Shown here: positions 18,491 to 49,432 of the stretch, piece after piece
How the letters are laid out: every line of letters starts with the position of its first letter
How positions within the stretch are numbered: position 1 is the stretch's first letter
Assembly (NCBI GenBank): GCA_016860985.1
Contig: BOKM01000001.1
Location: forward strand, 2,310 to 66,309
Length of the DNA stretch: 64,000 nt
Direction: 5' to 3'
Source of the DNA: Patescibacteria group bacterium
GTDB taxonomy: Bacteria > Patescibacteriota > Dojkabacteria > GCA-002793355
Made by a program: the position numbers and the translations under genes
Notes under the pieces: generated by a model
Seen by the model: only the letters and a program-made list of their open reading frames with translations
Databases searched by the model: none
What the model was told of the DNA's origin: nothing

Positions 18491-18577
18491 GATAGGACTG
18501 ACGGGACTTGAAGCAGCCATTACAATAATGCGGAACTGGAAGGTCTGGTACATGGAATGAGACAGTATAAAAAGGAT
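18491..18577 (+). repeat. copy A (short form) of a conserved noncoding element family (GATAGGACTGACGGGACTTGAAG...AATGCGG...GGTCTGG...GAGACAGTATAAAAAGGA)
   Basis: About 80% identity to 24714-24826 and to the split copy at 47538-47600 plus 47830-47866. Same orientation in all three. Confidence 0.6.
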
Positions 18578-18602
18578 GTCTCAGCGTGTCATTATCCAGA
18601 TA

Positions 18603-19253
18603 TTACCCTTCTACCAAACGCTCAGGAATGAACATTTCTGCATAAACTGGACCACCATGGCTCTTCATTAGTTTCCCAAGAAGGTATGGATGCAAATACT
18701 CTGAAGGAACAATTTGACAGAATGCTTTAATCATTTGGGGATCAATCAATTTCGCATACTTAAAAATAGATAAGACTTTCATTTTTTGCTCAATTTGCTC
18801 ATTGCTCCCAAAGAAAAACATCTTTGGAATAAAGTTGGTCGAATAGGGAGATCTAAAGTAAATAAGGTTTTCAGCAGAACGACTTGCAATATTGACACAC
18901 TTTGCAACGACTTCGTGATCAGTATGGTTGTCTTGCGGGAAATGAGTATAGATAGTATCGGGTTTAAACTCTTCAACAAGTTTTTCTAACTCCTTTTTCA
19001 CTTCCGTTGTATATTTTTCAAGTTCAGAGTCTGGATACTCAGAAAAAGAGTAATCTTTAACTCCCATTAATGTCGCAGCATCTAGAGCTTCCTTTGTCCT
19101 GATTTCTTCATATTCTTTTGCTTTTATCCCGCCTCTCGTTACACAGTGAATCTTTACTTTCGCCCCGTTCTTGATTAAATCTTCAATCTTCATTGACATG
19201 CTGATTTCAGCATCGTCTGGGTGCGCAACAATAATTAGAACTCGTTTTATCAT
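18603..19253 (-). CDS. PIG-L/LmbE-family deacetylase
   Basis: N-terminal VLIIVAHPDDAEI (AHPDD zinc-binding motif) and downstream HxDH-type motif (DNHTDHE). Confidence 0.75.
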   Translation of the reverse strand: MIKRVLIIVAHPDDAEISMSMKIEDLIKNGAKVKIHCVTRGGIKAKEYEEIRTKEALDAATLMGVKDYSFSEYPDSELEKYTTEVKKELEKLVEEFKPDTIYTHFPQDNHTDHEVVAKCVNIASRSAENLIYFRSPYSTNFIPKMFFFGSNEQIEQKMKVLSIFKYAKLIDPQMIKAFCQIVPSEYLHPYLLGKLMKSHGGPVYAEMFIPERLVEG

Positions 19254-19255
19254 TT

Positions 19256-20167
19256 TTAGTAGTTAGTAATCATAAGTTCTGATATAGAGCCTCTACTCGT
19301 CCCCTTAGAGTTAATATTCCTATTTGCGCGTACCTTTTTAATAAAGAATTTTTTGTACAGGGATTCAAAAAAGTTATCATTTATATCTGAATTATGTGGG
19401 TCAGAGTTGCTAAGTATAAGATTTGCGCCAAGATTATCCATTCGCTTGTAATAATCAGCTAAACGTTTTTGATCTTCGTCCGTGAATCCCTCTTTCGAGT
19501 AACTTGTAAAACTTGCTGCCTGCTTTAGTGGACGATATGGAGGATCAAGGTAAATCAAAGTGCCCTTTGTCACATAGTCTTCAGATAGCTGAAAATCTCC
19601 ACAAAGGATAACAGTCTTTTTCAATGACTTACTTACCTCAAATAGATTCTCCTTATCACAAATTTTTGGGTTCACATATCTTCCAAAAGGTACGTTGAAT
19701 TCCCCTTTCTTATTTTGTCTAAACAAACCATTAAAGCAAGTTCGATTAAGAAAGATTATCAACACCGTTCTCTCAATCCAATTAGGATTATAATGTGCAT
19801 AATCTATACCTTTTTGGGTCTCGTTATACAACATTCTCTTCAAATAGAAGAACTTTTCTCTCTCTGTTGAGACAAGACTTAAATACTCCTTCTGAATATT
19901 TTCCAATCTCTCGATAACCTCTTTTACATGAAGCTTTATTGTCTTGTACGCTAACACAAGGTCAGGATTAATATCAATTATTACTGACTTACCAATTTCA
20001 TAATTGTTGTTCAGATAGAAGAAGAAGGAACCACCACCAATAAAAGGCTCAATATATGTGGCAATCTTTTTTGTTTTAGTTACACTATTTGGTAGTCGTG
20101 CAATTAGATCATTCATTAACTGCCTTTTGCCACCTGCCCATTTTAGAAAGGGTTTTGAGTTAATCAT
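19256..20167 (-). CDS. Dam-class (D12) N6-adenine DNA methyltransferase, DpnM/MboIA-like
   Basis: N-terminal FLKWAGGKRQL and catalytic DPPY with EPFIGGGSFFF (AdoMet motif I). Last gene of a three-gene R-M operon on the minus strand. Confidence 0.85.
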   Translation of the reverse strand: MINSKPFLKWAGGKRQLMNDLIARLPNSVTKTKKIATYIEPFIGGGSFFFYLNNNYEIGKSVIIDINPDLVLAYKTIKLHVKEVIERLENIQKEYLSLVSTEREKFFYLKRMLYNETQKGIDYAHYNPNWIERTVLIIFLNRTCFNGLFRQNKKGEFNVPFGRYVNPKICDKENLFEVSKSLKKTVILCGDFQLSEDYVTKGTLIYLDPPYRPLKQAASFTSYSKEGFTDEDQKRLADYYKRMDNLGANLILSNSDPHNSDINDNFFESLYKKFFIKKVRANRNINSKGTSRGSISELMITNY

Positions 20168-20925
20168 TTAATTAAATACCTCGCAGAGTTAAGCAATTTA
20201 ATGCCATTGTATTCATACAGGTCTTTAAACCCAAAGTGCCAAAGATAGTACAAATCCCCTCGCTTCTCAAAAAACAATGTTGTTACCTTCTTGTCTGTAT
20301 GTTCCTGCCATTGTCGATATGGATAGTAAAGCTGTCTAATAATTTCGTTCGAGGTACTTGAGTTTTTTGCCTCAACAAGCACTACTGAATCTCTTCCTTC
20401 ATACCCTGCATCGACCTCAGTTTGTACACTTTGAGTTGAAATTGTTTGAGTTCCAACTTTAAATGAAAATTCCGGTGTATATTTGCGTCCTCGAATCGTT
20501 AAAACCAAAGTAGGATCTTTAGTAAAGGTTCTAATAATACTCGAAGCGTACGTAAAATCTAAATGCTGCATCTCAGAATTCCCAACTTTTGTAGTCTCAA
20601 GGGTAAAATCAAGGATTGATTTATGGATTTCTGGTTCTGAGGTAATATCAGGGATGTCAACGTATCCTTCTCCTTTTATTATTGCATATGTTCCATTTTT
20701 TATCGGCAATAAAAACAATCCAAGTTTTCTAAAAATTTGTGGTCTGGAGTCTCTTGTATCCTGTTTACATAGGATCCTAGGCTCAGTAATCCCATCTGAA
20801 ACAAAATCTTTACAACTCTTTTTTATCTGAGTCGCTGTGATAGTCAGTGGCTCTTTTGAAAAATCATGATTGGTAATTCCAACATCTTCTCCAATCTTAT
20901 CCCACGCTCTATCTCTTGCTGTCAT
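20164..20925 (-). CDS. putative type II restriction endonuclease (candidate DpnII/MboI-like GATC cutter)
   Basis: 253-aa ORF sandwiched between two DNA methyltransferases with 1-4 nt overlaps (translational coupling). Gene order and sizes resemble the DpnII/LlaDCHI three-gene systems. No independent motif confirmation. Confidence 0.4.
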   Translation of the reverse strand: MTARDRAWDKIGEDVGITNHDFSKEPLTITATQIKKSCKDFVSDGITEPRILCKQDTRDSRPQIFRKLGLFLLPIKNGTYAIIKGEGYVDIPDITSEPEIHKSILDFTLETTKVGNSEMQHLDFTYASSIIRTFTKDPTLVLTIRGRKYTPEFSFKVGTQTISTQSVQTEVDAGYEGRDSVVLVEAKNSSTSNEIIRQLYYPYRQWQEHTDKKVTTLFFEKRGDLYYLWHFGFKDLYEYNGIKLLNSARYLIK

Positions 20926-21725
20926 TACGTATATTGTAATATTTTATTGATAAGGGCATGATATCGGGCTTTCGATACAGAAAGATATTCCTCTGACGTA
21001 TCTATTCCAATATACTTTCTTTTCAACCTATTTGCAACAATTCCTGTTGTAGAACTACCACAAAACGGGTCTAATACTAAATCGCCTTCGTTAGTGCTTG
21101 CAAGGATTACCCTCTTAAGTAGTTCTTCGGGCTTTTGTGTAGGGTGCTTTCCCTGAGCTTTATCACTCATTTTTGGAGTACCAATTGACCAAACGGAACG
21201 CATTTGTGTGTTCGGCTTTTTGATAGAATCTTCTTTCCAATCGCCATTTTTCATTTCTTGGTAATTAAACGTGTGCTTAGCTTTTTTCTCTTTTCTCACC
21301 CATAAAAGATTCTCATGACTGGCTGTGAAGAATCTGCAGCTAAGGTTTGGTGCTGCATTAGGCTTAAACCATGTAATATCATTTAAAATGTGAAATCCAA
21401 GTCGTTGAATTGCATAACCTATTTGATATATAGAATGGTACGTACTGCTGACCCAGAGTGTTCCATTTGGTTTCAAGACGCGCTTACAGGACTCAAGCCA
21501 TCTCATATGAAAATCGAAATTCTCGCCCAAACTCCTTCCCATATCCCATTCACCTTTTTTGACTGAAACCATTTTTCCATTTTGACAAGTAAAGCTTCCG
21601 TCAGAAAGAAAGTACGGAGGATCGGCAAATATCATATCAAACGTATTCTCTTTGTACTCGTTCAATACGTCATTACAATCTCCGTGATGCAATGTGAACG
21701 AATTATTCGAATAATACGGAGTCAT
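20925..21725 (-). CDS. beta-class N6/N4 DNA methyltransferase (DpnA-like)
   Basis: FADPPYF (motif IV) precedes VLDPFCGSSTTGIVA (motif I), the circular permutation typical of beta-class amino-methyltransferases. Confidence 0.8.
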   Translation of the reverse strand: MTPYYSNNSFTLHHGDCNDVLNEYKENTFDMIFADPPYFLSDGSFTCQNGKMVSVKKGEWDMGRSLGENFDFHMRWLESCKRVLKPNGTLWVSSTYHSIYQIGYAIQRLGFHILNDITWFKPNAAPNLSCRFFTASHENLLWVRKEKKAKHTFNYQEMKNGDWKEDSIKKPNTQMRSVWSIGTPKMSDKAQGKHPTQKPEELLKRVILASTNEGDLVLDPFCGSSTTGIVANRLKRKYIGIDTSEEYLSVSKARYHALINKILQYT

Positions 21726-21770
21726 GAATCCATTTTATAGGATAAATTATGATTTGGGAAATAATTCAAA

Positions 21771-22421
21771 TTAGGAAATATCACTTTTTTTACGTTCCTC
21801 CAACTGAAGCACTTCTTCTATTTTGACATATTTCACTTTGTTTACATATAAGTAGGCTAGAAGTTCTACAAGCGAATACGTGACAATATTGTCGTACTTA
21901 TTAATTCTATCGATTTGTTTTTCATGAGCGGCAATATTTCCAACAATCCTAATACAGTGGGCCAATTTTTTAATTCTTTGTGGCCATTTTGCTAATCCTA
22001 TCCATTTAGAAAGTGACTTGAATTTTGGTATCTGTACCTTTTGGTCTTTCAGTATTTCTTCAACAATTTTCCGTAACCTAACAGAAAACTGTTCCTGAGA
22101 TCGTTGTTTCAACCTGAATGTTTCAAGGACTAAGTCTCTAACGTGATGCGGAACAGCCTCATCAATTACGATTTCGACTGGATACAGTTGAAACCAGTCG
22201 TCCTTCGTCAGTCTGATCGTTTCGTCTTCAATTGCACCAATATATCCGTCATCTATTGTTTTCAAGATATACCGTGAACATGTTGAACATTTAAGAACAC
22301 AGGTATGCATGTAATTCTCCCAATAGTCATTTGACGATTTCGGAAGAAAAACATCAGTTATATCAACTACAGTACAAAGAGTTCTATTCCCACAGTTGCT
22401 ACAAAACGCTAGTTCTTCCAT
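21771..22421 (-). CDS. DUF4145 domain protein with an N-terminal zinc ribbon
   Basis: C-terminal IRIVGNIAAHEK matches the conserved R-x-x-G-N-x-A-A-H-E motif of DUF4145. N-terminal CSNCGN...C...CSTC. Confidence 0.5.
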   Translation of the reverse strand: MEELAFCSNCGNRTLCTVVDITDVFLPKSSNDYWENYMHTCVLKCSTCSRYILKTIDDGYIGAIEDETIRLTKDDWFQLYPVEIVIDEAVPHHVRDLVLETFRLKQRSQEQFSVRLRKIVEEILKDQKVQIPKFKSLSKWIGLAKWPQRIKKLAHCIRIVGNIAAHEKQIDRINKYDNIVTYSLVELLAYLYVNKVKYVKIEEVLQLEERKKSDIS

Positions 22422-22504
22422 TCTTTATTATACTCTCTGAGTTATTTGTAATAATAATTATCTTGGAACTAGACTTACATCAAGATTCGCGGTACTTGTG
22501 GTGT

Positions 22505-23845
22505 ATGGAAAACACAATAAAAGTACCTGACTTGCGCTACTGCCTCTATGCTCGAAAATCCTCCGAGTCGGACGAAAAGCAGGCGATGAGTATAGACAGC
22601 CAACTTCACGAAATGAGTGATCTAGCAAAGCGAGATAATATAAACATTGTCGATATTATTACAGAAAGCCATTCTGCTAAAGAAACTGGCCAACGACCAC
22701 AGTTTAACCTTATGGTTGAAGGAATTAGTAGTGGAAAGTATAACGGCATCATAACGTGGGCTCCAGATAGAATTTCAAGAAATGCAGGCGACCTTGGACG
22801 GATAGTCGATTTAATGGATCAAGGGAAGCTTTCTCTAATCAAAACACATTCTCAAACCTTTACAAACAACCCTAATGAGAAGTTCCTATTAATGATACTC
22901 TGCTCACAAGCAAAACTGGAAAACGACAATAGGGGAATAAACGTAAAGCGTGGACTAAAGAGTAAATGTCAGACAGGGGTAAGACCAACAATGCCACCTC
23001 TCGGATATATTAATATCATGAGAGCAAATAGAATCTCAACTGTAATACTTGATCCCGAAAAATCCCCAATAATTAAACAAATGTTCGTATATGTCGCGGA
23101 CAAAGGACTTTCAGGAAGAACCATCCGAAAATGGCTAAGAAAAATTGGATTCAAATCAAGAACAGGAAAAGACCTCGTTTTAAGTCTAATCTACAAAATG
23201 CTCAGAAATCCCTTTTATTATGGATATTTTAAATACGGTGAGAAAATATACAAAGGTTCACATGAACCTCTCATATCCAAACAAGTATTTGATAAGGTAC
23301 AAATACAGTTGCAAACAACACCACGACAGTGGAATAAACAGCTCTACCCTTTCAAGAAAATTTGCAAATGTGGAAGTTGTGGTAGTAGTATAACTGCAGA
23401 AACTAAGTTTCGAGTAGTTCAGAATGGGGATGTACATCCTCATATCTATTATCACTGCAATAGAATAAATGACTACGATTGTCATGAACCTTATATAACT
23501 GAAGCTGAACTCATACAGCAACTTGTTGCTCTTATGCCGCAAATCAAACTCGACAAAGAATACATTTGGAACCTATTCCAAGACGAAATCAAACGATTAA
23601 ATCATCTACAACAAATAATGAATCTGAAAAACAGCGTAGCTTTTGAAACAACTCCACATAGGAACATGTCCAAATCCATAAGTGCGATTAGTGAAAGAGA
23701 AACAGAAATGATCAAAGATTACTTCTTACACATTCTGCAGTATGGAACACCGGAAGAAAGGCAGAATGTATTAACAGGAGTTAAGTCAATCTTTATCCTA
23801 AAAGAACGGGAGCTTCGTCTTAAAGGTCAGATTAACGCTTTATGA
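22505..23845 (+). CDS. large serine recombinase (resolvase catalytic domain + recombinase domain + zinc ribbon)
   Basis: N-terminal YCLYARKSSESDEKQAMSIDSQ with the catalytic Ser, central recombinase domain, and CKCGSCGSS...YYHCN zinc ribbon. About 97% aa identity to the copy at 44850-46190. The start is set at MENTIK by comparison with the paralog; the longer ORF from 22331 overlaps the divergent gene. Confidence 0.85.
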   Translation: MENTIKVPDLRYCLYARKSSESDEKQAMSIDSQLHEMSDLAKRDNINIVDIITESHSAKETGQRPQFNLMVEGISSGKYNGIITWAPDRISRNAGDLGRIVDLMDQGKLSLIKTHSQTFTNNPNEKFLLMILCSQAKLENDNRGINVKRGLKSKCQTGVRPTMPPLGYINIMRANRISTVILDPEKSPIIKQMFVYVADKGLSGRTIRKWLRKIGFKSRTGKDLVLSLIYKMLRNPFYYGYFKYGEKIYKGSHEPLISKQVFDKVQIQLQTTPRQWNKQLYPFKKICKCGSCGSSITAETKFRVVQNGDVHPHIYYHCNRINDYDCHEPYITEAELIQQLVALMPQIKLDKEYIWNLFQDEIKRLNHLQQIMNLKNSVAFETTPHRNMSKSISAISERETEMIKDYFLHILQYGTPEERQNVLTGVKSIFILKERELRLKGQINAL

Positions 23846-24605
23846 CAATTTGTTGGAACATATCATCAGTATCATCTTTCCATTGCCCCGACCACGATAG
23901 TTTTAGCTCAATTAGCGAAGGACTAGCATTTTTTGCGTAAACACAAATCTTTAATTTGTAATCACCAGGAGTTAAACAATCCTTTTGGGCAAAAACTATA
24001 TCCTTACTTTCCAAAAAAAACATAGTCTTCTCTTTTTCTTCCGAAGAGTATCCCCTGTACTTTGAGGATGGCTTACACGTAGCAGGATTTGCAATCGAAC
24101 CAATATCAACAAAAAACATATTTCCCGACTGAATTGTCAGTACTCGTATCTCTTGATTATACTTTGCCGACCAGTTAAGAATTATTGGGGTAAAATTCTT
24201 TTCTTCAATAAAATCTCCTGAGCTATCTTTTTTAGAAATGCTTTCTAGGTATGTACTGCAATCTTCAGCTGCAAGCTTTCCTTCATTTTTTACCGCGATT
24301 CTGAAGAAATATACATCGATTCCTAAATCTGTTGTAGTTTTATGACAGAAGGGACTACCAAGTTTGAATAGGATTTTATTTTTTGGGGAGCGAAAAGTGT
24401 ATTTGAAATGTTCCGACATAAGTGGGCCGATAAATGCGACGAGTAGCGCAATAAGGCCAATTGCTATCTGTATGTAATCCGAAACAGATAACATTGATAC
24501 TACTGCAGGAACTAATGTTGGTGTCATCATTAATTGTACATTCTTTCCGACATACATACCAGAATTGTACTGGCATGTACTTTGCGTTCCAAAGCTTAGA
24601 ACCAA
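23832..24605 (-). CDS. hypothetical membrane-anchored protein
   Basis: 257-aa ORF with an N-terminal TM segment (IAIGLIALLVAFIGPLM). Confidence 0.4.
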   Translation of the reverse strand: MVLSFGTQSTCQYNSGMYVGKNVQLMMTPTLVPAVVSMLSVSDYIQIAIGLIALLVAFIGPLMSEHFKYTFRSPKNKILFKLGSPFCHKTTTDLGIDVYFFRIAVKNEGKLAAEDCSTYLESISKKDSSGDFIEEKNFTPIILNWSAKYNQEIRVLTIQSGNMFFVDIGSIANPATCKPSSKYRGYSSEEKEKTMFFLESKDIVFAQKDCLTPGDYKLKICVYAKNASPSLIELKLSWSGQWKDDTDDMFQQIVIKR

Positions 24606-24611: not shown

Positions 24612-24826
24612 TTTATTTTTGCAATTTTTAGATGATTTTGCGTATTACAGGACTACGTTGACACTTTTCCAATTTGGGGTATCCGTAAGTAATGGTAAGT
24701 TGGACATTTCCAGATAGGACTGACGGGACTTGAAGCAACCGTTGCAAAAATGCGGAGCATGTGGGTCTGGCACCGTACAATGGCTGGTTGGTAGAAAAAA
24801 TGAGACAAAAGAGACAGTATAAAAAG
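24612..24826 (+). repeat. copy B (long form, about 215 nt) of the conserved noncoding element, ending in an RBS-like AAAGGA just before the ATG of the next operon
   Basis: 24612-24720 matches 47432-47545 (AAGGAGTATT..TTTTAG....CGTATTACAGGACTACGTT.ACAC.TTTCC...GATAGGACTGACGGGACTTGAAG). The core also matches 18491-18577. Confidence 0.6.
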
Positions 24827-24830
24827 GAAA

Positions 24831-25937
24831 ATGATTTGTCTCAATCTAGAAAAATTGCTTATCACTTATCCACACAATCTGATGAATTTCTGTTATAATC
24901 CACAGCAATATGTAACAATACTATTGCACATGATTCAACCTACAAAGTCTTGGAATAATCCAAATCAACATTATAAGGATGCGCTGACTACTCCTTGGTA
25001 TAAAGTCTTGACTGGCCTACAAAGCGATTTCGTTAATGCGACAGTTTCATTTTATAAAGAAATTGGTTATGATTTTACCCTTCTTCCGATAACTACAGGT
25101 GCTATTTCTAGCCCTATGGGGTTAGGAAGTGACTCGTCACCGGTTCAAGTGAATATTGGAGGTGTCGAGACATATCTTGCCGATTCAATGCAATTCATGC
25201 TTGAGTATGCATGCAGAGTTAGAAAAAATGGATGCTATTATTTGGCACCATCGTTTAGAGGAGAACTTGCAGATGCAAGACACTTATGCCAATTTTATCA
25301 TTCAGAAGCAGAAATAGAAGGTACGATTACGGATGTAATGTCACTTGTAGAGAGATACGTAAAGTACCTTGCACAGTGGTATAAAGATCATAGCAAAAAT
25401 GAACTATTAACTGTAACTGATAATATTTCACATCTGGATACACTTATCAATATTGAAAAGATCCCAACAGTCACTTTCGCTGAAGCAGTCGATATCCTTG
25501 AAAACAATAGCGAATACATTCAAAATCATGGTATTTACCGAACAATTAACCATGCAGGCGAAAAGAAATTAATTGAGAAATATGGCGGATTTGTCTGGTT
25601 AACCCATTTTGATCATCTTGCAGTTCCATTCTATCAGAAGAATACTGATGACACATTTACGACTGCAATTAACGCAGATCTGCTTATGGGAATCGGAGAA
25701 ACAGTTGGCTCTGGTGAGCGACACTTCTCAAGAAGAGAAACAGAGAAAGCACTTGATTTTCATAAGGTGAGTAGAGATCATTACGAATGGTATTTAACAA
25801 TGAAGGAACTTGTACCAATGCAAACATCAGGCTTCGGACTTGGAGTTGAAAGATTCTTGTTATGGTTAACTAATCAAAATGATATTAGAGATATGCAATT
25901 AGTACCAAGATTTAATGGAGAAAAGGAGATACTATGA
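24831..25937 (+). CDS. class II aminoacyl-tRNA-synthetase-like catalytic core without an anticodon-binding domain (AsnRS/AsnA-like amino-acid ligase)
   Basis: Motif 2-like YYLAPSFRGELADARHLCQFYHSEAEIE and motif 3-like SGFGLGVERFLLWLT. No N-terminal OB fold, as in archaeal-type asparagine synthetase A paralogs. Confidence 0.55.
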   Translation: MICLNLEKLLITYPHNLMNFCYNPQQYVTILLHMIQPTKSWNNPNQHYKDALTTPWYKVLTGLQSDFVNATVSFYKEIGYDFTLLPITTGAISSPMGLGSDSSPVQVNIGGVETYLADSMQFMLEYACRVRKNGCYYLAPSFRGELADARHLCQFYHSEAEIEGTITDVMSLVERYVKYLAQWYKDHSKNELLTVTDNISHLDTLINIEKIPTVTFAEAVDILENNSEYIQNHGIYRTINHAGEKKLIEKYGGFVWLTHFDHLAVPFYQKNTDDTFTTAINADLLMGIGETVGSGERHFSRRETEKALDFHKVSRDHYEWYLTMKELVPMQTSGFGLGVERFLLWLTNQNDIRDMQLVPRFNGEKEIL

Positions 25938-26770
25938 AAAAATATACAGTAGAAGAAATAACAAAAATTAATTACACAGATTTTATCTCTTTGATTAAGG
26001 AAACGAATCGTTGCCCTGGAGGTAAAGACACAATTCGAAAGATAGTGCAGAATACTTTCATCGACGAAAACAGTAGGGTTCTCGATGTTGGTTCAAATAC
26101 AGGATTCACGTCTTTAGAACTTTCCCACATTTCAAAAGCAAAAATTTCGGGAATTGATGTTTCAGAAGCATGCGTAAATACTGCTAATGCACTGCTGGCA
26201 ACAGATATCGAAGAAGTGAGAAAAAGAGTCGATTTCCAAGTTGGTAGTGCATACGAGATTCCTTTCGAAAATGATACATTCGATCTTGTTGTAACTGGTG
26301 GTGCGACGTCATTTATGGATAAGAAACAACAGGCAATTTCAGAGTATAAACGAGTACTAAAACCATGGGGGTTTTTGAGTGCAACTCAATTATTCTATAC
26401 AACAAAACCACCCCAAGCTGTGGTTGATGCAGTTTCGAATGCAATTGGCGTCACGATAAATCCATGGTTGGAACAAGACTGGAAAAATGTATTCTTAGAA
26501 ACCCAAGAAAGTGGAGTACTTGAGCTGTATTATTATGAAAAGAACGAACTACAATCAAGGCCAGCTGACGTTATTGAAGAATACATGGAATACTTTATGG
26601 CGAAAGATCACCTAAAAGAATATTCTGAGGATGTTCGTAATGCGATTAGGAAAAAGTGGAAAATGTACATTGATGTATTCAATGAAAATCACAAGTATCT
26701 TGGTTACTTTATTTCATTATTCAGAAAAACTCAGTATCCAGAGGAGCCTGAATTATTTATAAGAAAATGA
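25934..26770 (+). CDS. class I SAM-dependent methyltransferase
   Basis: VLDVGSNTGFTSLEL (motif I) and DLVVTGGA (motif II region). Start overlaps the upstream gene by 4 nt. Confidence 0.7.
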   Translation: MKKYTVEEITKINYTDFISLIKETNRCPGGKDTIRKIVQNTFIDENSRVLDVGSNTGFTSLELSHISKAKISGIDVSEACVNTANALLATDIEEVRKRVDFQVGSAYEIPFENDTFDLVVTGGATSFMDKKQQAISEYKRVLKPWGFLSATQLFYTTKPPQAVVDAVSNAIGVTINPWLEQDWKNVFLETQESGVLELYYYEKNELQSRPADVIEEYMEYFMAKDHLKEYSEDVRNAIRKKWKMYIDVFNENHKYLGYFISLFRKTQYPEEPELFIRK

Positions 26771-26774
26771 TTCA

Positions 26775-27839
26775 GTGAAAGACCGTAACCAAAAATCCAA
26801 AAAAGGACAGAGTAAATCGGGAAAGCCCTTAGAGAAAGCAGACACATTGTTTATAGATAAACATGAAAGGGATACATTTTTACCGTTGCTGAGATATCTG
26901 TATGGGATCGAATTCCAAGACAAAATAGAGTTTGTGTCGTCATTATCTCTTACCTCACGAAAGTGTTTAATTTTCGATAATGAAGGGGTTAAGTATTTTC
27001 TTAAGCGTAAACCAGAGTATTCATTACAAGAACCATTGAGAACAAGAGCTATAAGGCTTCAGTCTCTACTTGCGACAAAAGTTCCCTTTATTCCCCAAAT
27101 CATATTTACAAAGACAGATAATCAACCACTGGGTGTTATTAATAGTAGTCATTATCTGCTTACTAAATATGTAGATGGTCAAATATTTGGAGGTCGGATT
27201 GAACAGTCAATTACGGGTGCATCAAAACTAGGGTTGATGCATAAAATTGCGAATCAAAATCTTGCAGAGGAGTCTTCGCCTGTTGACTCAAATGAGTCAG
27301 TTAAAACATTTATCGGTTACGCCGAGAAAATGAGTTTTTCTGATGCAAAATTGCAGAATGAAGTACTTGATAAAATAAGAAAGAAAGTACAGACATTAAA
27401 ATCCGAGAATAAGGGAAAAATGAGTTGGATTCACTCGGATTTCGCTCCATTTAATCTTGTATTTTCCGGTGACGAGGTCGTTGCCGTTAATGATTTTGAC
27501 AATGCAACGTTTGGTAACATATCTAAAGATGTTGCAGAATGCATTATTTCATTTGCAGATATTAACTATAATGGGGCGACGTCGTTTCTTAACAAGGTGA
27601 TCAGAACCTCAATTGATGAACGCTCTATGGCTAGATTGCTTGAGGCATATATGAATACATCTGAAAGTTCAATTAGTGATTTAACAGATTTACCAAATGA
27701 AATGAGTTTAATGTGGTTAAAATTGATGGTCCTAGGATTGCTTAGAGGTGATTTCGCATTAGAGGATGTTAATGTGGTACTGAATCACGCAGATGATCTT
27801 AATGTGGTAGGAAATGAATTACTACACTCTCTAAAATAG
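26775..27839 (+). CDS. aminoglycoside-phosphotransferase-fold (APH/choline-kinase-like) kinase
   Basis: WIHSDFAPFNLVF...VNDFDNATFGN corresponds to the HxDxxxxN catalytic loop plus the DFD/DFG metal-binding motif of the APH fold. GTG start 5 nt after the upstream stop. Confidence 0.55.
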   Translation: MKDRNQKSKKGQSKSGKPLEKADTLFIDKHERDTFLPLLRYLYGIEFQDKIEFVSSLSLTSRKCLIFDNEGVKYFLKRKPEYSLQEPLRTRAIRLQSLLATKVPFIPQIIFTKTDNQPLGVINSSHYLLTKYVDGQIFGGRIEQSITGASKLGLMHKIANQNLAEESSPVDSNESVKTFIGYAEKMSFSDAKLQNEVLDKIRKKVQTLKSENKGKMSWIHSDFAPFNLVFSGDEVVAVNDFDNATFGNISKDVAECIISFADINYNGATSFLNKVIRTSIDERSMARLLEAYMNTSESSISDLTDLPNEMSLMWLKLMVLGLLRGDFALEDVNVVLNHADDLNVVGNELLHSLK

Positions 27840-27840
27840 T

Positions 27841-28836
27841 ATGCGAGAACTTATCTATCCAACGAAGATGAGAGCAGGTCAAAAGCTAGGTGTTTTTGCA
27901 TCTTCAAGTCCCGCCTTATCATTCCCAAATGCAAATGATTCATACAAGTATATTAATGCAAAAGGCGTAAACGTTTTTGAGCACAAACAATGCAGAATAA
28001 AGAACAGACACACTGCAGGAACGGTGGTTGACAGAGTATCGGCAATTAATGACTTACTGCTCGATAATTCAATTGGTATTCTCATGGCTTATTGGGGAGG
28101 TACAAATACCAATGATTTATTAAAGTATCTTGATTATGAGTTATTTGCTAGATATCCCAAAATAATTATTGGATATTCTGATACAACGGCATTACTTCAG
28201 GCAATAACATCAAAGACAGGATTAGTCACTTTTATGGGGCCAGCCGCAATTACGTTTATTAAACCTGAACCCTTTGAGTATTCTTGGAGTTACTTTTATA
28301 AAATGTGTATTGCACCTGAGGATGAGGTTGTTATTGAAGATTCGCCAGTTTTTGCAGATGACGAATACTTTCTTCGAGAAGATAGTAATCACCGAATAAT
28401 TCGACCAAATTCTGGTCGCCAAGTTTTTAAAGATGGAAATTTCAAAGGGGCGTGCATTGCTAGCAATCTCGAGACTTTATTGGCGTTAGCCGGTACTGAA
28501 TATTTTCCAAATCTCGAAGGGAAAGCCCTTTTTATTGAGGAAAGTGAAGAAGAAAATCTATCAACGGTAAATAGAAATTTTAGGCAATTATCGCAGGTCG
28601 ATGGCTTCGATAAGTTGAGTGCTTTGTTGATAGGAAGGTTTTGCGAAAAGAGTGGATTTTCTGATCAAGATTCTGTCGAAATGATGTTAGAAGATACTCT
28701 AGTAAACACAAACTTTCCTGTTATCTATAATCTTGATTTCGGCCATTCTGATCCATTATTCACTATTCCCAATGGTGGTAGCGTTATTATTGATACAAAA
28801 CAGAAAGTTTTACAATTTTCAAAAGCTGTCGTCTAA
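27841..28836 (+). CDS. S66 peptidase (LD-carboxypeptidase LdcA / microcin-C immunity MccF-like)
   Basis: IIGYSDTTALLQAI (catalytic Ser in G-Y-S-D-x-T-A-L) and C-terminal DFGHSD (His). Start is 2 nt after the kinase stop. Confidence 0.7.
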   Translation: MRELIYPTKMRAGQKLGVFASSSPALSFPNANDSYKYINAKGVNVFEHKQCRIKNRHTAGTVVDRVSAINDLLLDNSIGILMAYWGGTNTNDLLKYLDYELFARYPKIIIGYSDTTALLQAITSKTGLVTFMGPAAITFIKPEPFEYSWSYFYKMCIAPEDEVVIEDSPVFADDEYFLREDSNHRIIRPNSGRQVFKDGNFKGACIASNLETLLALAGTEYFPNLEGKALFIEESEEENLSTVNRNFRQLSQVDGFDKLSALLIGRFCEKSGFSDQDSVEMMLEDTLVNTNFPVIYNLDFGHSDPLFTIPNGGSVIIDTKQKVLQFSKAVV

Positions 28837-29828
28837 TAACGATTGTCGACTGGTGTTGCCTCATAAAGATACCAATCTGCGTCAAACTGGTCTGATATCA
28901 ATAAGTCTCCTCTTTCATTCAAAAGATGTACGTTTGAATGTTCTCCATCTACTAATAACCAATGTCCATTAAAGTGTAAACTGTCCTGTAACCAAACAGT
29001 CTTGATTGAGACTTTATTTTCAAGAATAAATTTACCAGACGCAATCTTCCCGTAATATGCTTCACCCCTCGCAGTATCAGAAAAACTTATTCTTTTATCT
29101 GCATATACTCTAACTGAATGTGGCCTTTTAAGATCGCTCATTATTGGAGTAATTTCACCTGTCGTTTTGTTGATAGTATTAAGCGTTCCTTGCATGAATA
29201 AAGTTACTAATATGGTATTGTCGTCGTATTCTGCGGCTGCATTCGGATGTGCTGTATGTAACCACGTATCATATTCTACATACCTGTGATCAATATCCTT
29301 GCTCAAGGTACGATTAATTCCGAAGGCATCAGTCATGAAACCGTGATCCATGGCCCACCATTGCCAAAGTACCTCTTTCCCATTCTCTGATAGTTCAAAT
29401 ATAGCATCAACCCCAGCAGAAGTAAGTAAAAATCCTTTTTTAGTTTTGCGCATAGAGTGTAAAGCATTAAAGGATTTTAGAGATGACAGTTCAGTGCTTT
29501 TAGTAAGATCAAGAGAATGAATTCCAATTGAGTGATGTGATGCGCTCAAAATGCCATTATCGGTAACCATAATTCCATGTAGGAAATCCGATTGCGCAGT
29601 CGCTACAATGGTACCTTCCTTGTTAATCTTTGCTATTAATCCTGCATATGGATTGTCAATTTCTGGTATATTCCACTCTTTTATGCTTGGACGAACTCGT
29701 TCTTGGTTCTTTTCTCTGGCCCAACGTTCCTTTCTTTTTCCAAGATCTCGATATGTAACGGACAAAAAATATTCAGGCATACTAGAAGAACTGTCATATA
29801 CAGTACGAACGAGAGGGAATTTACTCAT
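28833..29828 (-). CDS. hypothetical protein (possible beta-propeller), downstream of the NUDIX gene
   Basis: 331-aa ORF, 2-nt spacing from the upstream NUDIX gene and 4-nt overlap with the convergent peptidase gene. Confidence 0.4.
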   Translation of the reverse strand: MSKFPLVRTVYDSSSSMPEYFLSVTYRDLGKRKERWAREKNQERVRPSIKEWNIPEIDNPYAGLIAKINKEGTIVATAQSDFLHGIMVTDNGILSASHHSIGIHSLDLTKSTELSSLKSFNALHSMRKTKKGFLLTSAGVDAIFELSENGKEVLWQWWAMDHGFMTDAFGINRTLSKDIDHRYVEYDTWLHTAHPNAAAEYDDNTILVTLFMQGTLNTINKTTGEITPIMSDLKRPHSVRVYADKRISFSDTARGEAYYGKIASGKFILENKVSIKTVWLQDSLHFNGHWLLVDGEHSNVHLLNERGDLLISDQFDADWYLYEATPVDNRY

Positions 29829-29829
29829 T

Positions 29830-30276
29830 TTACTTTGTAATCTTTAATCTGATTGCTTCAGCTTTTTCCATACTTGCGAGAATCCAAGGTGGAGTATTTG
29901 GATTTGATTTGATTTCTTCAAATGTCATCCAAGATACTTCATCAACTTCATCCTCTATCATTGCCGATGGATCACCTGATTTGTATTCTGCAATAAAGAC
30001 AATATCAATGACATGGTTGCCTTTAGCACTTACAAACATCTTGCTTTCTACATATTCGAGCTTTTCTTGAACTTGTACGTTAACTTCTTCCAAGATTTCT
30101 CGTTTTACACCAAATTCTAGTGTATCAGTAAGTGCGTCTGAATAATCAACTTTTCCGCCAACCATAGAAAGAGTACCACCTGCATGATCTTCTTTTTTTG
30201 ATCGTAAAATCATGAGCCATTTATTATTTTGAAAAATAGCTGCTTCAACATTTACTATAAATTTTGGAGGTTCCAT
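29830..30276 (-). CDS. NUDIX hydrolase
   Basis: Nudix box GGKVDYSDALTDTLEFGVKREILEEVNV (GX5EX7REUXEEXGU). Confidence 0.8.
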   Translation of the reverse strand: MEPPKFIVNVEAAIFQNNKWLMILRSKKEDHAGGTLSMVGGKVDYSDALTDTLEFGVKREILEEVNVQVQEKLEYVESKMFVSAKGNHVIDIVFIAEYKSGDPSAMIEDEVDEVSWMTFEEIKSNPNTPPWILASMEKAEAIRLKITK

Positions 30277-30349
30277 AGCACTGATTATAGCATAAAATTA
30301 TTGATAAATAGGTTTGGGAGTATAAGGACTTTAGAGTACAATATTCTAT

Positions 30350-30673
30350 ATGATATATTCAAAAGAAGATCAAGAATTGATCCAAAAAGCAATTAGTTTC
30401 TTAGTTGAGAACTTCAATAAATCAGGTAACAACAATAAGCCTGTTATCCTTCATAGCATTCGGCTTGCGATGCGCCTTTACGACAAAGGGAAAAAGGCAT
30501 CAGTAGTTGTTGGAGCTCTTCTGCACGATTTGTTGGAAGATACACAGGTTACATTGTCTAACATTACGTCGAAATTCGGTATTGTACATAGTTCTTTTAA
30601 CGCTTGTAGCTCATTTTCCACTCGTTTTACAAAAACCTCTATCTCCATATATTCATTATACAGTGATTTATAA
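30350..30673 (+). pseudogene. truncated HD-domain (RelA/SpoT-type hydrolase-like) gene fragment
   Basis: HSIRLAMRL...ALLHDLLEDT are HD-domain metal ligands, but the ORF ends after 107 aa in low-complexity sequence where the family normally continues. Probable remnant. Confidence 0.4.
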
Positions 30674-30833
30674 TAGTATTATCCTAAGCTAATCTGAATT
30701 CCAACATGCGCCCAAGTCCTTATTGGTGTAGATGATTGGGATTCAGTAATACAGGCCGATTTAAACCTGACGTTTGACATTGGCAAGCTGCCTAAATTTA
30801 TCTTAGAGTAGCTAGAGTATATTCCCATAGTAA

Positions 30834-33104: not shown

Positions 33105-33190
33105 GACGTCTTCTTCGTGAATATTGCGGTTATCTTAAAGGTAAAATCCTCCATGGTGTATAATAAATGTATTGATGCTTTTCGCATTAA

Positions 33191-33275
33191 TCATATTCAC
33201 GGAAATTCGATATCATTCAAAAAATATTCATAGAAATTTAAGGAAATTCAAAAAAATATTCATGGGCATTCAAAG
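33191..33275 (+). repeat. iteron-like direct repeats (ATTCAAAAAA(A)TATTCAT x2 plus partial copies) upstream of the ParB-methyltransferase gene
   Basis: 33215-33231 and 33246-33263 are near-identical 17/18-mers 14 nt apart. Partial copies at 33191-33210 and 33268-33276. Confidence 0.5.
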
Positions 33276-33278
33276 TGT

Positions 33279-33310
33279 TTGTGTGTAACGCGCAAATACA
33301 ATTGTATAAT
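33279..33310 (+). promoter_or_regulatory. candidate sigma70-type promoter (TG-TATAAT -10 element) for the ParB-methyltransferase operon
   Basis: TGTATAAT at 33303-33310, 18 nt upstream of the ATG at 33328. A weak TTGTGT -35-like hexamer lies 20 nt upstream. Confidence 0.35.
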
Positions 33311-33327
33311 TTTTTACTAACAATTTA

Positions 33328-35036: not shown

Positions 35037-35078
35037 TCTGCTAGATTTCTTGACGCGAAAAGAATAAAATTACATCAC

Positions 35079-38147: not shown

Positions 38148-38192
38148 TTAGATTAGGAATAAATGACTTTAATAAGAAAGTTCTAGAAATAT

Positions 38193-38684: not shown

Positions 38685-38686
38685 TT

Positions 38687-40108: not shown

Positions 40109-40146
40109 ACCCCAGACTTCATCCTTCTTTGCGTTACTTGTTGTGC

Positions 40147-40203: not shown

Positions 40204-40300
40204 ATGTTAAGTTACAAGTTTTAATAAGACCGTATTTATCCCAATTGTTGTTACAGTTCCTTCTTCAGCGTATAATTCAAGATAATGTGTTTTTGTAATC

Positions 40301-46190: not shown

Positions 46191-46215
46191 AATGAGTTAC
46201 TACGTATCTTCAGAG

Positions 46216-49423: not shown

Positions 49424-49432
49424 TATATCTAC

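What the first reader, a model, noticed from the sequence alone, without database searches (positions are those of the whole stretch)
24612..24826. Conserved noncoding element present three times in direct orientation, delimiting recombinase-bearing gene blocks
Copies at 18491-18577 (short form), 24612-24826 and 47432-47600 plus 47830-47866 share the core GATAGGACTGACGGGACTTGAAG - (variable, about 14 nt, often locally palindromic) - AATGCGG - GGTCTGG - GAGACAGTATAAAAAGGA. Copies B and C additionally share about 110 nt of 5' sequence (AAGGAGTATT...CGTATTACAGGACTACGTT.ACAC.TTTCC). All are in the same orientation and all are intergenic. Each segment between consecutive copies contains one large serine recombinase (18.5-24.6 kb: R-M system plus recombinase 1; 24.6-47.4 kb: about 23 kb of defence and biosynthesis genes plus recombinase 2). 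That pattern is what tandem integrative elements or cassettes inserted at the same att-like site look like. Alternatively the element is a mobile promoter/leader module: copy B ends in AAAGGA-n3-ATG of the AsnA-like operon, and A and B contain a GAGACA...TGTCTC inverted repeat around the TATAAAAAGGA box. No feature class in the annotation explains this sequence family.
Basis: seen in the sequence. Interest (0 to 1): 0.7.

Follow-up and report, generated by a model that had tools for sequence, protein, structure and literature searches.

The report
Recombination-site repeats between tandem tRNA-linked islands
The three repeats are the junction sequences left between mobile defence islands stacked one after another beside a tRNA gene; each island carries its own serine integrase, and the repeat holds a decayed tRNA-Asp tail plus a fixed-length noncoding arm that travels with that integrase in several candidate-phyla bacteria.

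Summary
The 23-mer core occurs exactly three times, all on the + strand and all intergenic, with none expected by chance. B and C share a further ~110 nt.

The element is not a structured RNA, a gene or a MITE. Read on the minus strand, it is the sequence that lies immediately 3' of an intact tRNA-Asp gene in two related uncultured genomes (Dojkabacteria, Saccharibacteria).

The same ~170-nt arm lies 0.4-3.3 kb downstream of homologous large serine recombinase (LSR) genes at nine distinct loci. There it abuts intact tRNA-Ser genes, tRNA-Asp fragments or decayed tRNA-end-like remnants; two loci are cut by contig ends.

Spacing is fixed although the sequence between the motifs diverges. The tRNA T-loop to the pseudo-T-loop is 38 nt. 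The pseudo-T-loop to the AAGCTTAGAACC motif is 133-134 nt.

Best reading: these are attP-like junctions between tandem, phage-derived, defence-carrying LSR islands at a tRNA-Asp locus, with the crossover inferred at the tRNA 3' end. The closest precedent is the Dehalococcoides ssrA islands.

The anchoring tRNA lies outside the window, and no recombination was observed.

The parts
18491..18513 (-). On the minus strand it is a degenerate tRNA-Asp T-loop/T-stem/acceptor 3' segment.
   Evidence: Exact match. The same box in B, C, D1 and L15a aligns to tRNA-Asp with p<0.001.
18514..18582 (-). Copy A: linker, CCGCATT box (18527-18533), decayed tRNA-end-like X'' (GGTCTGG at 18542-18548) and the TATAAAAAGGA box with GAGACA/TGTCTC inverted repeat (18559-18582). 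On the minus strand it reads ATGACA-17-TATACT. The arm to the left is truncated at about 18484.
   Evidence: This position is orthologous to L002 copy D3, directly after the PIG-L gene.
24585..24603 (.). Copy B: quasi-palindrome CGTTCCAAAGCTTAGAACC at the island-proximal end of the arm. Its conserved half reads GGTTCTAAGCTT on the minus strand, which is T-arm-like.
   Evidence: The 12-mer AAGCTTAGAACC was found only at arm ends across 544 kb of loci (about 0.07 expected).
24641..24669 (.). Copy B: near-invariant ~30-nt box CGTATTACAGGACTACGTTGACACTTTTC.
   Evidence: Alignments A3-A5. Conserved in 8 copies from 4 genomes, absent from the Saccharibacteria copy and not alignable in L022 and L066.
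24713..24755 (-). Copy B: box X' (24713-24735), 13-nt linker and tRNA 3'-end box AATGCGG (24749-24755). This is the predicted right half of the recombination site.
24756..24845 (-). Copy B right module: decayed tRNA-end-like X'' (GGTCTGG at 24764-24770), spacer, TATAAAAAGGA box with inverted repeat (24811-24842). On the minus strand it matches a sigma70-like promoter, TTGAGA-17-TATACT.
   Evidence: It is 86% identical to L002 6704-6823. Its similarity to tRNA-Asp is not significant on its own.
47408..47600 (-). Copy C: palindrome (47408-47426), 30-nt box (47464-47493), X' (47535-47557), AATGCGG (47571-47577) and X'' (AGTCTGG at 47586-47592).
47849..47866 (-). Copy C: displaced TATAAAAAAGA box, separated from the rest of the copy by an insertion that carries a 54-codon ORF (47647-47811).
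22505..23845 (+). Large serine recombinase 1. The ORF as listed starts at 22331; the start at 22505 is inferred by homology to LSR2. It ends 747 nt before the AAGCTTAGAACC motif of arm B.
   Evidence: Pfam Resolvase+Recombinase+Zn_ribbon_recom. 95% amino-acid identity to LSR2.
23832..24491 (-). 219-aa protein gene with no Pfam or PHROGs family match, lying between LSR1 and arm B. It is conserved in the same position in L015.
   Evidence: 64% identity to L015 10307-10966. No Pfam or PHROGs family.
44850..46190 (+). Large serine recombinase 2. It ends 1225 nt before the AAGCTTCGAACA motif (the AAGCTTAGAACC counterpart) of arm C.
   Evidence: Pfam. PHROG 95, integrase. Nearest solved relative is the A118 serine integrase. 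More than 8000 homologues, those with names being Patescibacteria.
18603..24584 (.). Island 1: PIG-L gene, type II restriction-modification system (two methyltransferases plus a DUF6996/6997 restriction enzyme), DUF4145, LSR1 and the 219-aa gene.
   Evidence: L002 has PIG-L but lacks the R-M and LSR part.
24831..47407 (.). Island 2: AsnA-like operon, ParB-methyltransferase, small terminase, type IIG restriction enzyme, DSPc phosphatase, DUF2779, LSR 5' remnant (40100-40202), PDC-S37/Hhe-like helicase-nuclease and LSR2.
   Evidence: 97.5% identical copies occur on metagenome contigs L023 and L030, which break in the arm or the LSR gene.
47885..64000 (.). Island 3 (incomplete, runs off the window): Old/GajA-like ATPase, ParB-methyltransferase, small and large terminase, and a type ISP-like ORF from 59377 onward.
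   Evidence: The same module order occurs in L031 and L066.

Best explanation
A, B and C are the junction sequences between tandemly integrated mobile islands. The islands are phage-derived and carry defence genes; each of the two complete ones encodes a large serine recombinase (LSR), and the third runs off the window before any could be seen.

Each unit, read on the window minus strand (the strand of the tRNA), consists of:
1. A tRNA 3'-end box. In relatives this is an intact tRNA or a clear fragment. In the window it is a decayed remnant, X'', ending in CCGCA.
2. A linker of about 16 nt from the end of the invariant CCGC to X' (13 nt between the printed CCGCATT box and the 23-mer).
3. X', a T-arm mimic derived from tRNA-Asp.
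4. A noncoding arm of fixed length that contains a ~30-nt invariant box and ends in a T-arm-like quasi-palindrome.
The island's LSR module follows, with the LSR gene on the opposite strand.

Inferred mechanism. The LSR recombines a circular island with the 3' end of a tRNA gene. The site is about 52 bp and centred on the tRNA 3' terminus. Its left half is the tRNA T-arm and acceptor strand, and its right half is the linker plus X'. Each new island enters at the tRNA and pushes older islands downstream. This leaves internal junctions that look like complete attP sites, made of the island-distal arm, CCGCA, X' and the arm. The 30-nt box and the palindrome, held at fixed distance, are proposed accessory or regulatory protein-binding sites.

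Shown: the repeat, its tRNA origin, the linkage to LSR genes, the fixed spacing, and the absence of RNA structure or coding signal.
Inferred: that the LSR acts on this site, where the crossover lies, and what the distal boxes do.
For: 1. In L001 (Saccharibacteria) and L002 (Dojkabacteria), intact tRNA-Asp(GTC) is followed directly by the element. L002 has three successive copies downstream of the tRNA. The third lies after a PIG-L gene, which is 81% nt / ~86% aa identical to the window gene, and corresponds to window copy A.
2. X' aligns to tRNA-Asp as GGTTGC---TTCAAGTCCCGTCA vs GGTTGCGGGTTCGAGTCCCGTCA, with p<0.001 in four copies. The same 3-nt deletion occurs in all lineages.
3. At 9 of 9 distinct LSR loci that have downstream sequence, the arm lies 0.4-3.3 kb past the LSR stop in one orientation. 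The loci are window x2, L015, L021, L023, L032, L033, L022 and L066. The arm abuts tRNA-Asp fragments, intact tRNA-Ser(GCT), tRNA-Ser(CGA) or tRNA-Ser(TGA), the decayed X'' remnant (window B and C), or a contig end (L023, L033).
4. The T-loop to X' spacing is 38 nt (37 once) in 10 junctions, although the linkers are unalignable between lineages. The midpoint falls on the tRNA 3' end, exactly where similarity among all junction types begins (invariant CCGC). The two halves share an outer motif, GGnnTnGAAnC, 15-25 nt from the centre.
5. The AAGCTTAGAACC motif to X' distance is 133-134 nt in 12 of 13 copies (the win_C row anchored on a spurious site; recomputed it is 133 nt). The 12-copy alignment is nearly gap-free.
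6. Copies within one genome are not each other's closest relatives: B groups with the L002 and L001 copies, C with L015. The arm therefore moves horizontally.
7. No tyrosine integrase was found among the 55 window ORFs scanned or in the called genes of related loci.
8. The islands carry ParB-methyltransferase, small and large terminase genes and defence cargo.
9. Four independent metagenome contigs end at the same base inside the arm, as expected for a repeat or branch point.
10. A precedent exists: the tandem LSR islands at ssrA in Dehalococcoides have the same geometry (PMC3146451).
Against: - The window holds no tRNA gene. The anchoring tRNA-Asp is only predicted to lie beyond 64,000, and the source genome could not be fetched.
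- The X'' remnants in the window are not significantly similar to tRNA-Asp on their own (p=0.04-0.6).
- No empty site, excised circle or distal attR was found, so the crossover position is inferred from symmetry and conservation only.
- Canonical LSRs need only simple ~50-bp sites and recombine attP with attB only. Tandem arrays and a 170-nt arm are not predicted by that model.
- The P half-sites in the window show little dyad symmetry with the right half (5-7 of 30 positions).
- In L015 the tRNA-Asp fragment next to the LSR island is not near an intact tRNA-Asp, and a second arm copy sits beside tRNA-Ser with no LSR adjacent.
Confidence: 0.68

Rival explanations
1. The arm is chiefly a cis-regulatory module (promoter, operator or terminator) that serves whatever gene lies next to it. 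It is repeated because it is carried with the islands or copied by homologous recombination. On this view its position at island boundaries is incidental to recombination.
For: - In 7 of 10 copies a gene on the tRNA strand starts 23-95 nt beyond the palindrome.
- The right module matches a sigma70-like promoter on the minus strand in A, B and L002 copy D3.
- The 30-nt box contains TTGACA on the + strand.
- Block-wise primary-sequence conservation without RNA structure fits protein-binding DNA.
Against: - In 3 of 10 copies the neighbouring gene is convergent, so nothing lies downstream to regulate.
- No hexamer pair with correct spacing is conserved across lineages on either strand (read from alignment A3).
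- It does not explain the tRNA-derived X' box held exactly 38 nt from the T-loop of four different tRNAs.
- It does not explain the constant linkage to LSR genes.
Confidence: 0.12
2. The copies are relics of events not catalysed by these LSRs. Possible sources are older tyrosine-integrase islands at tRNA-Asp, or segmental duplication of a 'tRNA-Asp plus flank' unit. They now serve only as substrates for homologous recombination that shuffles cargo. The LSRs would then use an unrelated site.
For: - tRNA 3' fragments as direct repeats are the classic tyrosine-integrase signature, and serine integrases were stated not to target tRNA genes (PMC4383910).
- A conserved 40-nt block sits just upstream of every LSR start and beside an LSR remnant. 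It could be the real site.
- Mosaic breakpoints lie near LSR 3' ends.
- Cassettes without an integrase are flanked by arm copies in L002 and L021.
Against: - No tyrosine recombinase was found in the window or in any related locus.
- The arm-LSR linkage and orientation hold at 9 of 9 loci with four tRNA species.
- Fixed spacing despite sequence divergence argues for present function, not decay.
- LSR islands at tDNA do have precedents.
Confidence: 0.12
3. The element is a noncoding RNA gene or a small-protein gene, co-transcribed with or antisense to the tRNA and duplicated with the islands.
For: - Length is conserved to 1 nt over ~170 nt.
- One + strand frame reads VPKLRT...YYRTTLTLF and is open in several copies.
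- A minus-strand promoter-like site points into the element.
Against: - No Rfam match at gathering or permissive thresholds.
- Single-copy folds are no better than shuffles, except a marginal z of -2.0 for B on the minus strand.
- RNAalifold gives -1.8 and -0.5 kcal/mol on 8 copies and 0.0 on 12 copies, with no compensatory support.
- The candidate frame has no start codon and carries in-frame stops in C, L021b, L015b, L032 and S1.
- There is no codon periodicity (0.33, 0.34, 0.39).
Confidence: 0.04
4. The element is a REP- or MITE-like selfish repeat, scattered regardless of context.
For: It is short, noncoding and multi-copy, and one end carries a palindrome.
Against: - There are only three copies in 64 kb, all in one orientation.
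- There are no terminal inverted repeats or target-site duplications.
- Every copy examined (about 16 distinct copies, 23 placements counting near-identical contigs) lies beside a tRNA 3' end or its remnant, or is cut off by a contig end before that side can be read.
- A 20-mer scan of 185,579 species genomes found only two genomes.
- All metagenome 18-mer hits were chance matches, and there were no viral hits.
Confidence: 0.02

Closest known systems
Dehalococcoides ssrA-specific genomic islands (McMurdie et al. 2011, PMC3146451)
   Same: - Several tandem islands lie downstream of one tDNA.
- Boundaries are marked by direct repeats of the tDNA 3' end.
- The integration module sits next to the tDNA-proximal junction on the reverse strand and starts with a large serine recombinase.
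- ParB-domain and methyltransferase genes are present in the islands.
- There is extra sequence conservation around the repeat.
- Integrase-less segments are bounded by repeats.
   Different: - The target here is a tRNA (Asp; Ser in relatives), not tmRNA.
- Each island has one LSR of the A118-like type, not a DsiA/DsiB (CcrA/B-like) pair.
- The repeated unit is ~170-215 nt with fixed internal spacing, not 20 bp plus a 15-bp motif.
- The crossover is inferred at the tRNA 3' terminus rather than in the T-loop.
- The host is a Patescibacteria lineage.
Islander-type tDNA islands and tycheposons (PMC4383910; bioRxiv 10.1101/2020.12.28.424599)
   Same: - Islands stack at tRNA genes, with newer arrivals pushing older ones outward.
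- Partial tRNAs mark the boundaries.
- Cargo is defence or metabolic genes.
- Some are phage-satellite-like, with small terminase genes.
- A minority of tycheposons (27 of 937) carry a large serine recombinase.
   Different: - Those systems are overwhelmingly tyrosine-integrase based, with an identity block inside the tRNA and restoration of the tRNA from the island copy.
- Here no tyrosine integrase is present.
- The tRNA fragments in the window are decayed.
- Each junction carries a second, older T-arm mimic at a fixed 38-nt offset.
Staphylococcal SCC composite islands (CcrAB/CcrC at rlmH)
   Same: LSR-family recombinases, tandem accretion of elements at one chromosomal site, and short direct repeats at each junction. 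This rests on general knowledge and on the discussion in PMC3146451.
   Different: The target is a protein-gene 3' end, the repeats are ~15-20 bp, and no long conserved arm or tRNA mimic is involved.
res sites of Tn3/gamma-delta resolvases (small serine recombinases)
   Same: This is an analogy only. Both have a multi-part site of >100 bp in which a crossover subsite and accessory subsites sit at fixed spacing. This rests on general knowledge.
   Different: The enzyme class differs (small resolvase rather than LSR). Binding to the distal boxes has not been shown here, and there is no sequence relationship.

Membership tests
tDNA-anchored tandem genomic islands (Islander signature) | An intact tRNA or tmRNA gene at the head of the array | tested here: inconclusive
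   ARAGORN finds 0 tRNAs in the window. In the closest relative, L002, an intact tRNA-Asp heads three successive copies. Other LSR loci abut intact tRNA-Ser genes. The window genome beyond 64,000 could not be retrieved.
tDNA-anchored tandem genomic islands (Islander signature) | Direct repeats derived from the tDNA 3' end at each island boundary | tested here: met
   The X' box in A, B and C is a degenerate tRNA-Asp 3' segment (p<0.001). Clear 19-34 nt fragments occur in L002 copy D2, L015a and L021a. The X'' remnants in the window are not significant on their own.
tDNA-anchored tandem genomic islands (Islander signature) | An integrase gene inside each island, next to a junction | tested here: met
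   LSR1 and LSR2 lie 0.75 and 1.2 kb from arms B and C. Island 3 runs off the window.
tDNA-anchored tandem genomic islands (Islander signature) | The integrase belongs to the tyrosine recombinase family | tested here: not met
   Only serine recombinases were found. No Phage_integrase domain appears among 55 scanned ORFs.
Dehalococcoides ssrA-GI / SCC-like LSR islands | LSR gene adjacent to the tDNA-proximal junction, on the strand opposite to the tDNA | tested here: met
   The same geometry is seen at window B and C and in L015, L021, L023, L032, L033, L022 and L066.
Dehalococcoides ssrA-GI / SCC-like LSR islands | Paired recombinases (DsiA/DsiB or CcrA/CcrB) and a target in ssrA or rlmH | tested here: not met
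   There is one Resolvase-domain gene per island. The target is tRNA-Asp or tRNA-Ser.
Large-serine-integrase attachment site | A ~40-50 bp site with two imperfectly symmetric half-sites around a central crossover | tested here: inconclusive
   The T-loop and the X' pseudo-loop are 38 nt apart in 10 junctions. Outer motifs GGnnTnGAAnC lie at 15-25 nt on both sides, giving a total of about 52 bp centred on the tRNA 3' end. Symmetry is weak for the X'' halves in the window.
Large-serine-integrase attachment site | Recombinase-dependent strand exchange at the site | not testable with these tools
   This needs an in vivo or in vitro recombination assay, or read-level evidence of attP and attB junctions.
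Structured noncoding RNA (Rfam family or new) | A match to a covariance model, or conserved base pairs with covariation | tested here: not met
   Rfam gave 0 hits at gathering threshold and only chance snoRNA matches at E<=10. RNAalifold gave -1.8, -0.5 and 0.0 kcal/mol with no compensatory pairs of note.
MITE / REP elements | Terminal inverted repeats, target-site duplication, and many copies in either orientation regardless of context | tested here: not met
   Three copies, one orientation, and every copy examined is next to a tRNA end or its remnant, or is cut off by a contig end.
Integron cassette array | An IntI tyrosine recombinase with attI, and hairpin-forming attC sites between promoterless cassettes | tested here: not met
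   There is no tyrosine recombinase. No conserved hairpin spans the repeat. The islands are multi-gene, at 6-23 kb.

The most novel reading that the evidence does not exclude
A Patescibacteria-wide clade of large serine integrases is specific for the 3' ends of tRNA genes (Asp, several Ser). These integrases use a multipartite site of about 190 bp in total (the ~52-bp crossover site plus the arm). A ~52-bp crossover site is formed by the tRNA T-arm and an island-borne T-arm mimic. It is joined at fixed distance to a 30-bp box and a T-arm-like palindrome that act as accessory sites. That would be a res-like architecture not known for large serine integrases, and one that permits repeated tandem integration.
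Probability: 0.25. Interest if true: 0.65.

Novelty: new variant of a known kind. Interest (0 to 1): 0.48.

Why it matters
Integration into tRNA genes is regarded as the province of tyrosine integrases; the Islander database paper states that serine integrases are not known to target tRNA genes. A large, easily recognised clade of serine integrases tied to tRNA 3' ends in candidate-phyla bacteria would extend that picture.

It would also explain how defence islands accumulate in these tiny genomes. It gives concrete, testable att-site predictions for a family of enzymes that are sought as genome-engineering tools.

The strictly conserved spacing of the arm motifs, without RNA structure or coding signal, hints at accessory sites. 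These are not part of the current model for large serine integrases.

For annotation, the practical point is that the repeat marks island boundaries and should not be called an RNA gene.

Tried and rejected
- **Rfam.** The whole window at gathering threshold and 24400-25000 at E<=10 gave nothing relevant.
- **ARAGORN.** No tRNA or tmRNA in the window.
- **Single-sequence folds.** Folds of A, B and C on both strands gave z-scores of -0.0 to -2.0, not convincing.
- **RNAalifold.** Runs on 8 and 12 copies, both strands, found no structure.
- **Small-ORF idea.** The VPKLRT...YYRTT frame was rejected: no start codon, in-frame stops, no codon periodicity.
- **Public-collection scans.**
  - The 20-mer in species genomes found 2 loci, which were decisive.
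  - The 18-mer in metagenomes gave 12 chance hits.
  - The 18-mer, and a probe for the 30-nt box, gave 0 hits in viral contigs.
  - BLAST of element B against phage and plasmid records gave nothing relevant.
- **Fetching the source genome.** Exact-protein look-ups failed three times.
- **Right module as a decayed whole tRNA-Asp gene with its promoter.** Not significant (p=0.04-0.6).
- **X' re-derived from each island's cognate tRNA.** Rejected. All lineages share the same 3-nt deletion, and copies next to tRNA-Ser keep the Asp-like CCCGTC.
- **Palindrome as a split att core.** No extra half-sites were found in the window.
- **Empty tRNA-Ser(GCT) site to pin the crossover in L032.** None was found among 14 loci.
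Full report
**1. The observation**

- The 23-mer GATAGGACTGACGGGACTTGAAG occurs exactly at 18491, 24713 and 47535, all on the + strand. Even allowing three mismatches, none of 100 shuffles gave any match.
- The GAGACAGTATAAAAAGGA box follows at 18559 and 24811, and at 47849 with two mismatches.
- AATGCGG and GGTCTGG are in register in all three copies.
- B and C share a further 92 nt on the 5' side at 80% identity.
- C is interrupted by about 240 nt that carry a 54-codon ORF.
- Every copy is intergenic once the start of the minus-strand gene left of B is corrected to 24491 by homology.
- Each interval contains one large serine recombinase (LSR) with Resolvase, Recombinase and Zn-ribbon domains.
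- A profile search finds no other copy in the window.

**2. What the sequence is**

Nothing in Rfam matches and ARAGORN finds no tRNA in the 64 kb.

A scan of one genome per species with the 20-mer gave only two hits, both from uncultured candidate-phyla bacteria.
- In the Saccharibacteria contig L001, the element lies directly 3' of an intact tRNA-Asp(GTC) on the opposite strand.
- In the complete Dojkabacteria genome L002, tRNA-Asp is followed by three copies in succession:
  - copy D1;
  - a single kinase-like gene;
  - a 30-nt tRNA 3' fragment followed by copy D2;
  - a PIG-L gene that is 81% nt / ~86% aa identical to window 18603-19253;
  - a partial copy, D3.

L002 D3 therefore corresponds to window copy A. 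The window looks like an expanded version of the L002 array. It probably comes from a relative of that Dojkabacteria genome.

These comparisons also show that B is composite.
- The left arm (24585-24755) is the widely distributed part.
- The right module (24756-24845) holds GGTCTGG and the TATAAAAAGGA box. It occurs only in the window and in L002.

**3. The 23-mer is a tRNA fossil**

On the minus strand the linker plus core reads GGTTGC---TTCAAGTCCCGTCA. tRNA-Asp reads GGTTGCGGGTTCGAGTCCCGTCA.
- This alignment beats all 1000 shuffles for B, C, L002 D1 and L015a, and gives p=0.004 for L021b.
- All lineages share the same 3-nt deletion.

I call this box X'.

The remnant on the other side of the linker in the window copies (X'', which contains CCAGAC) is positionally equivalent to the tRNA 3' end. 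It is not significantly similar to the tRNA on its own.

**4. Linkage to the recombinase**

LSR2 has more than 8000 homologues; those that carry a name are from Patescibacteria. Its nearest solved relative is the A118 serine integrase.

I fetched loci for homologues of 62-90% identity. In every one that has sequence downstream of the LSR gene, the arm lies 0.4-3.3 kb past the LSR stop codon, in one orientation, with a few variable small genes between.

| Locus | LSR identity | What the arm abuts |
|---|---|---|
| L015 | 82% | 34-nt tRNA-Asp fragment |
| L021 | 74% | tRNA-Asp fragment; a second arm runs into a tRNA at the contig end |
| L023 and three sister contigs | >=90% | all four contigs break at the same base inside the arm |
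| L032 | 62% | intact tRNA-Ser(GCT), then host flank |
| L033 | 62% | contig end |
| L022 | 66% | intact tRNA-Ser(CGA) |
| L066 | 65% | intact tRNA-Ser(TGA), then metabolic genes |

With the two window cases this makes nine of nine.

No tyrosine integrase is present in the window or in these loci. Copies within one genome are not each other's closest relatives: B groups with L002 and L001, C with L015. The arm therefore travels with the islands.

The islands themselves are phage-derived and carry defence genes:
- ParB-methyltransferase, small and large terminase genes;
- type II, type IIG and type ISP-like restriction systems;
- a PDC-S37/Hhe-like helicase-nuclease;
- an Old/GajA-like ATPase.

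**5. Anatomy and fixed geometry**

Alignment of 10-12 copies shows four conserved blocks:
- the invariant CCGC of the tRNA end;
- X';
- a near-invariant ~30-nt box, GAAAAGTGTCAACGTAGTCCTGTAATACG;
- a terminal quasi-palindrome whose conserved half, GGTTCTAAGCTT, resembles a T-arm.

Spacing is the striking feature.
- The tRNA T-loop and the X' pseudo-loop are 38 nt apart (37 once) in ten junctions. These junctions involve tRNA-Asp and three tRNA-Ser species, although the linkers between cannot be aligned across lineages.
- AAGCTTAGAACC and X' are 133-134 nt apart in 12 of 13 copies. This holds even in L022 and L066, where the sequence between is essentially unrelated. The win_C row anchored on a spurious GGAGACTTGG site and printed 103 nt; I recomputed 133 nt by hand from the coordinates.
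- Only the Saccharibacteria copy is 51 nt shorter.
- The adjacent right module, by contrast, has 30-nt and 240-nt indels among A, B and C.

The fixed length is not explained by RNA or by coding.
- RNAalifold gives -1.8 and -0.5 kcal/mol on eight copies and 0.0 on twelve, for both strands.
- One reading frame looks peptide-like. It lacks a start codon, is broken by stops in five copies and shows no codon periodicity.

I infer a constraint at the DNA level, meaning a protein-DNA assembly of defined geometry.

**6. Mechanism proposed**

The midpoint between the T-loop and X' falls on the tRNA 3' terminus (CCGCA|TTTTT). This is exactly where similarity among all junction types begins.

Read outward-in, the left half (top strand) and the right half (bottom strand) share the motif GGnnTnGAAnC at 15-25 nt from that centre. 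This defines a site of about 52 bp, the size of a serine-integrase attachment site.

I therefore propose the following.
- The LSR exchanges strands at the tRNA 3' end. The tRNA T-arm and acceptor strand form one half-site, and the island-borne linker plus X' form the other.
- An intact tRNA followed by the arm is an attL-type junction, as in L001, L002 D1, L032, L022 and L066.
- The window copies, with X'' followed by the arm, are internal junctions that resemble complete attP sites. That is what successive integration at the tRNA should leave.
- The 30-nt box and the palindrome may be accessory or regulatory sites.
- The right module read on the minus strand matches a sigma70-like promoter, TTGAGA-17-TATACT, in A, B and L002 D3. 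It could drive transcription across the junction.

All of this section is inference. No recombination product, empty site or distal junction was seen.

**7. Weak points**
- The anchoring tRNA is outside the window, and the source genome could not be fetched.
- The X'' half-sites show little symmetry with X'.
- Canonical serine integrases recombine only attP with attB, so tandem arrays need an explanation, as they do for SCC and the Dehalococcoides islands.
- In L015, arm copies occur both next to an orphan tRNA-Asp fragment and next to tRNA-Ser without an LSR.

**8. Comparison with known systems**

The closest described system is the set of Dehalococcoides ssrA islands. These are tandem islands downstream of a tDNA, bounded by repeats of its 3' end. 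Each has an LSR-led integration module on the reverse strand next to the tDNA-proximal junction, and ParB and methyltransferase genes (PMC3146451).

Differences here are the target (tRNA rather than tmRNA), a single A118-like LSR rather than a DsiA/DsiB pair, and a 170-215 nt repeat with fixed internal spacing rather than 20 bp.

Tycheposons and Islander-type islands share the stacking logic but are almost all tyrosine-integrase elements. The Islander paper states that serine integrases are not known to target tRNA genes. Three literature searches found no description of this arm or of tRNA-linked LSR islands in Patescibacteria.

**9. Verdict**

The element is a recombination-junction repeat derived from the tRNA-Asp 3' end plus the conserved LSR-proximal arm of a mobile island family. 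It is not an RNA gene or a generic repeat.

I rate it a new variant of a known kind, of moderate interest. The conserved spacing and the possible multipartite site are the part worth an experiment.

Noticed in passing
window 24773-33384 versus 47595-56207: The variable cargo segments of islands 2 and 3 lie between the junction repeat and the ParB-methyltransferase gene. They are 8611 and 8612 nt long, yet share no detectable homology. This is either coincidence or an unexplained length constraint.
   Followed up: partly
window 40100-40202: A remnant of the LSR gene's first ~80 nt sits just before the 1472-aa helicase-nuclease gene, together with the 40-nt block that precedes every LSR start (CTAGACTTCC...TTGCGGTACTTGT). 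That gene is therefore flanked by direct repeats of the LSR 5' region.
   Followed up: partly
window 47647-47811: A 54-codon ORF encoding a glycine-rich, hydrophobic peptide lies within a ~240-nt insertion that splits copy C between its tRNA-end box and the TATAAAA box. It has no PHROGs match.
   Followed up: partly
window 33328-35036 and 56133-59312: ParB-methyltransferase plus small terminase genes occur in both islands; island 3 also has a large terminase. The same order precedes the LSR in L022, L032 and L066. The islands therefore look like degraded prophages or phage satellites.
   Followed up: partly
window 19256-21725, 35079-38147, 40301-44719, 53960-55960, 59377-64000: Defence cargo is dense: a type II R-M system with two methyltransferases and a DUF6996/6997 restriction enzyme, a type IIG enzyme, a PDC-S37/Hhe-like helicase-nuclease, an Old/GajA-like ATPase, and a long type ISP-like ORF that runs off the window.
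   Followed up: partly
window 24831-28836: An operon begins at the edge of copy B. It encodes a class II aminoacyl-tRNA-synthetase-like (AsnA-like) protein, a methyltransferase, an APH-type kinase and an LD-carboxypeptidase. It may be a small-molecule modification or resistance cluster carried as island cargo.
   Followed up: no
L002 4330-5754; L021 8043-9290: Single-gene segments are bounded by two arm copies and have no recombinase. In L002 the gene is kinase-like, in L021 a short-chain dehydrogenase. They look like cassette-sized remnants or cis-mobilisable units. The two tRNA fragments share the same altered T-loop, GTTGCGGATGAGAATCC.
   Followed up: partly
L023, L026, L027, L029 (contig ends); L030 (contig start, about window 24710): Four contigs from different sequencing runs end at the identical base inside the arm. 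A fifth contig begins at the 23-mer. This suggests a repeat-induced or population-level branch point at the junction.
   Followed up: no
L036 4001-5444: A more distant LSR (45% identity) on a viral contig is followed 117 nt later by tRNA-Gln(CTG) on the opposite strand, without the arm. tRNA association may extend beyond the arm-bearing subclade.
   Followed up: no
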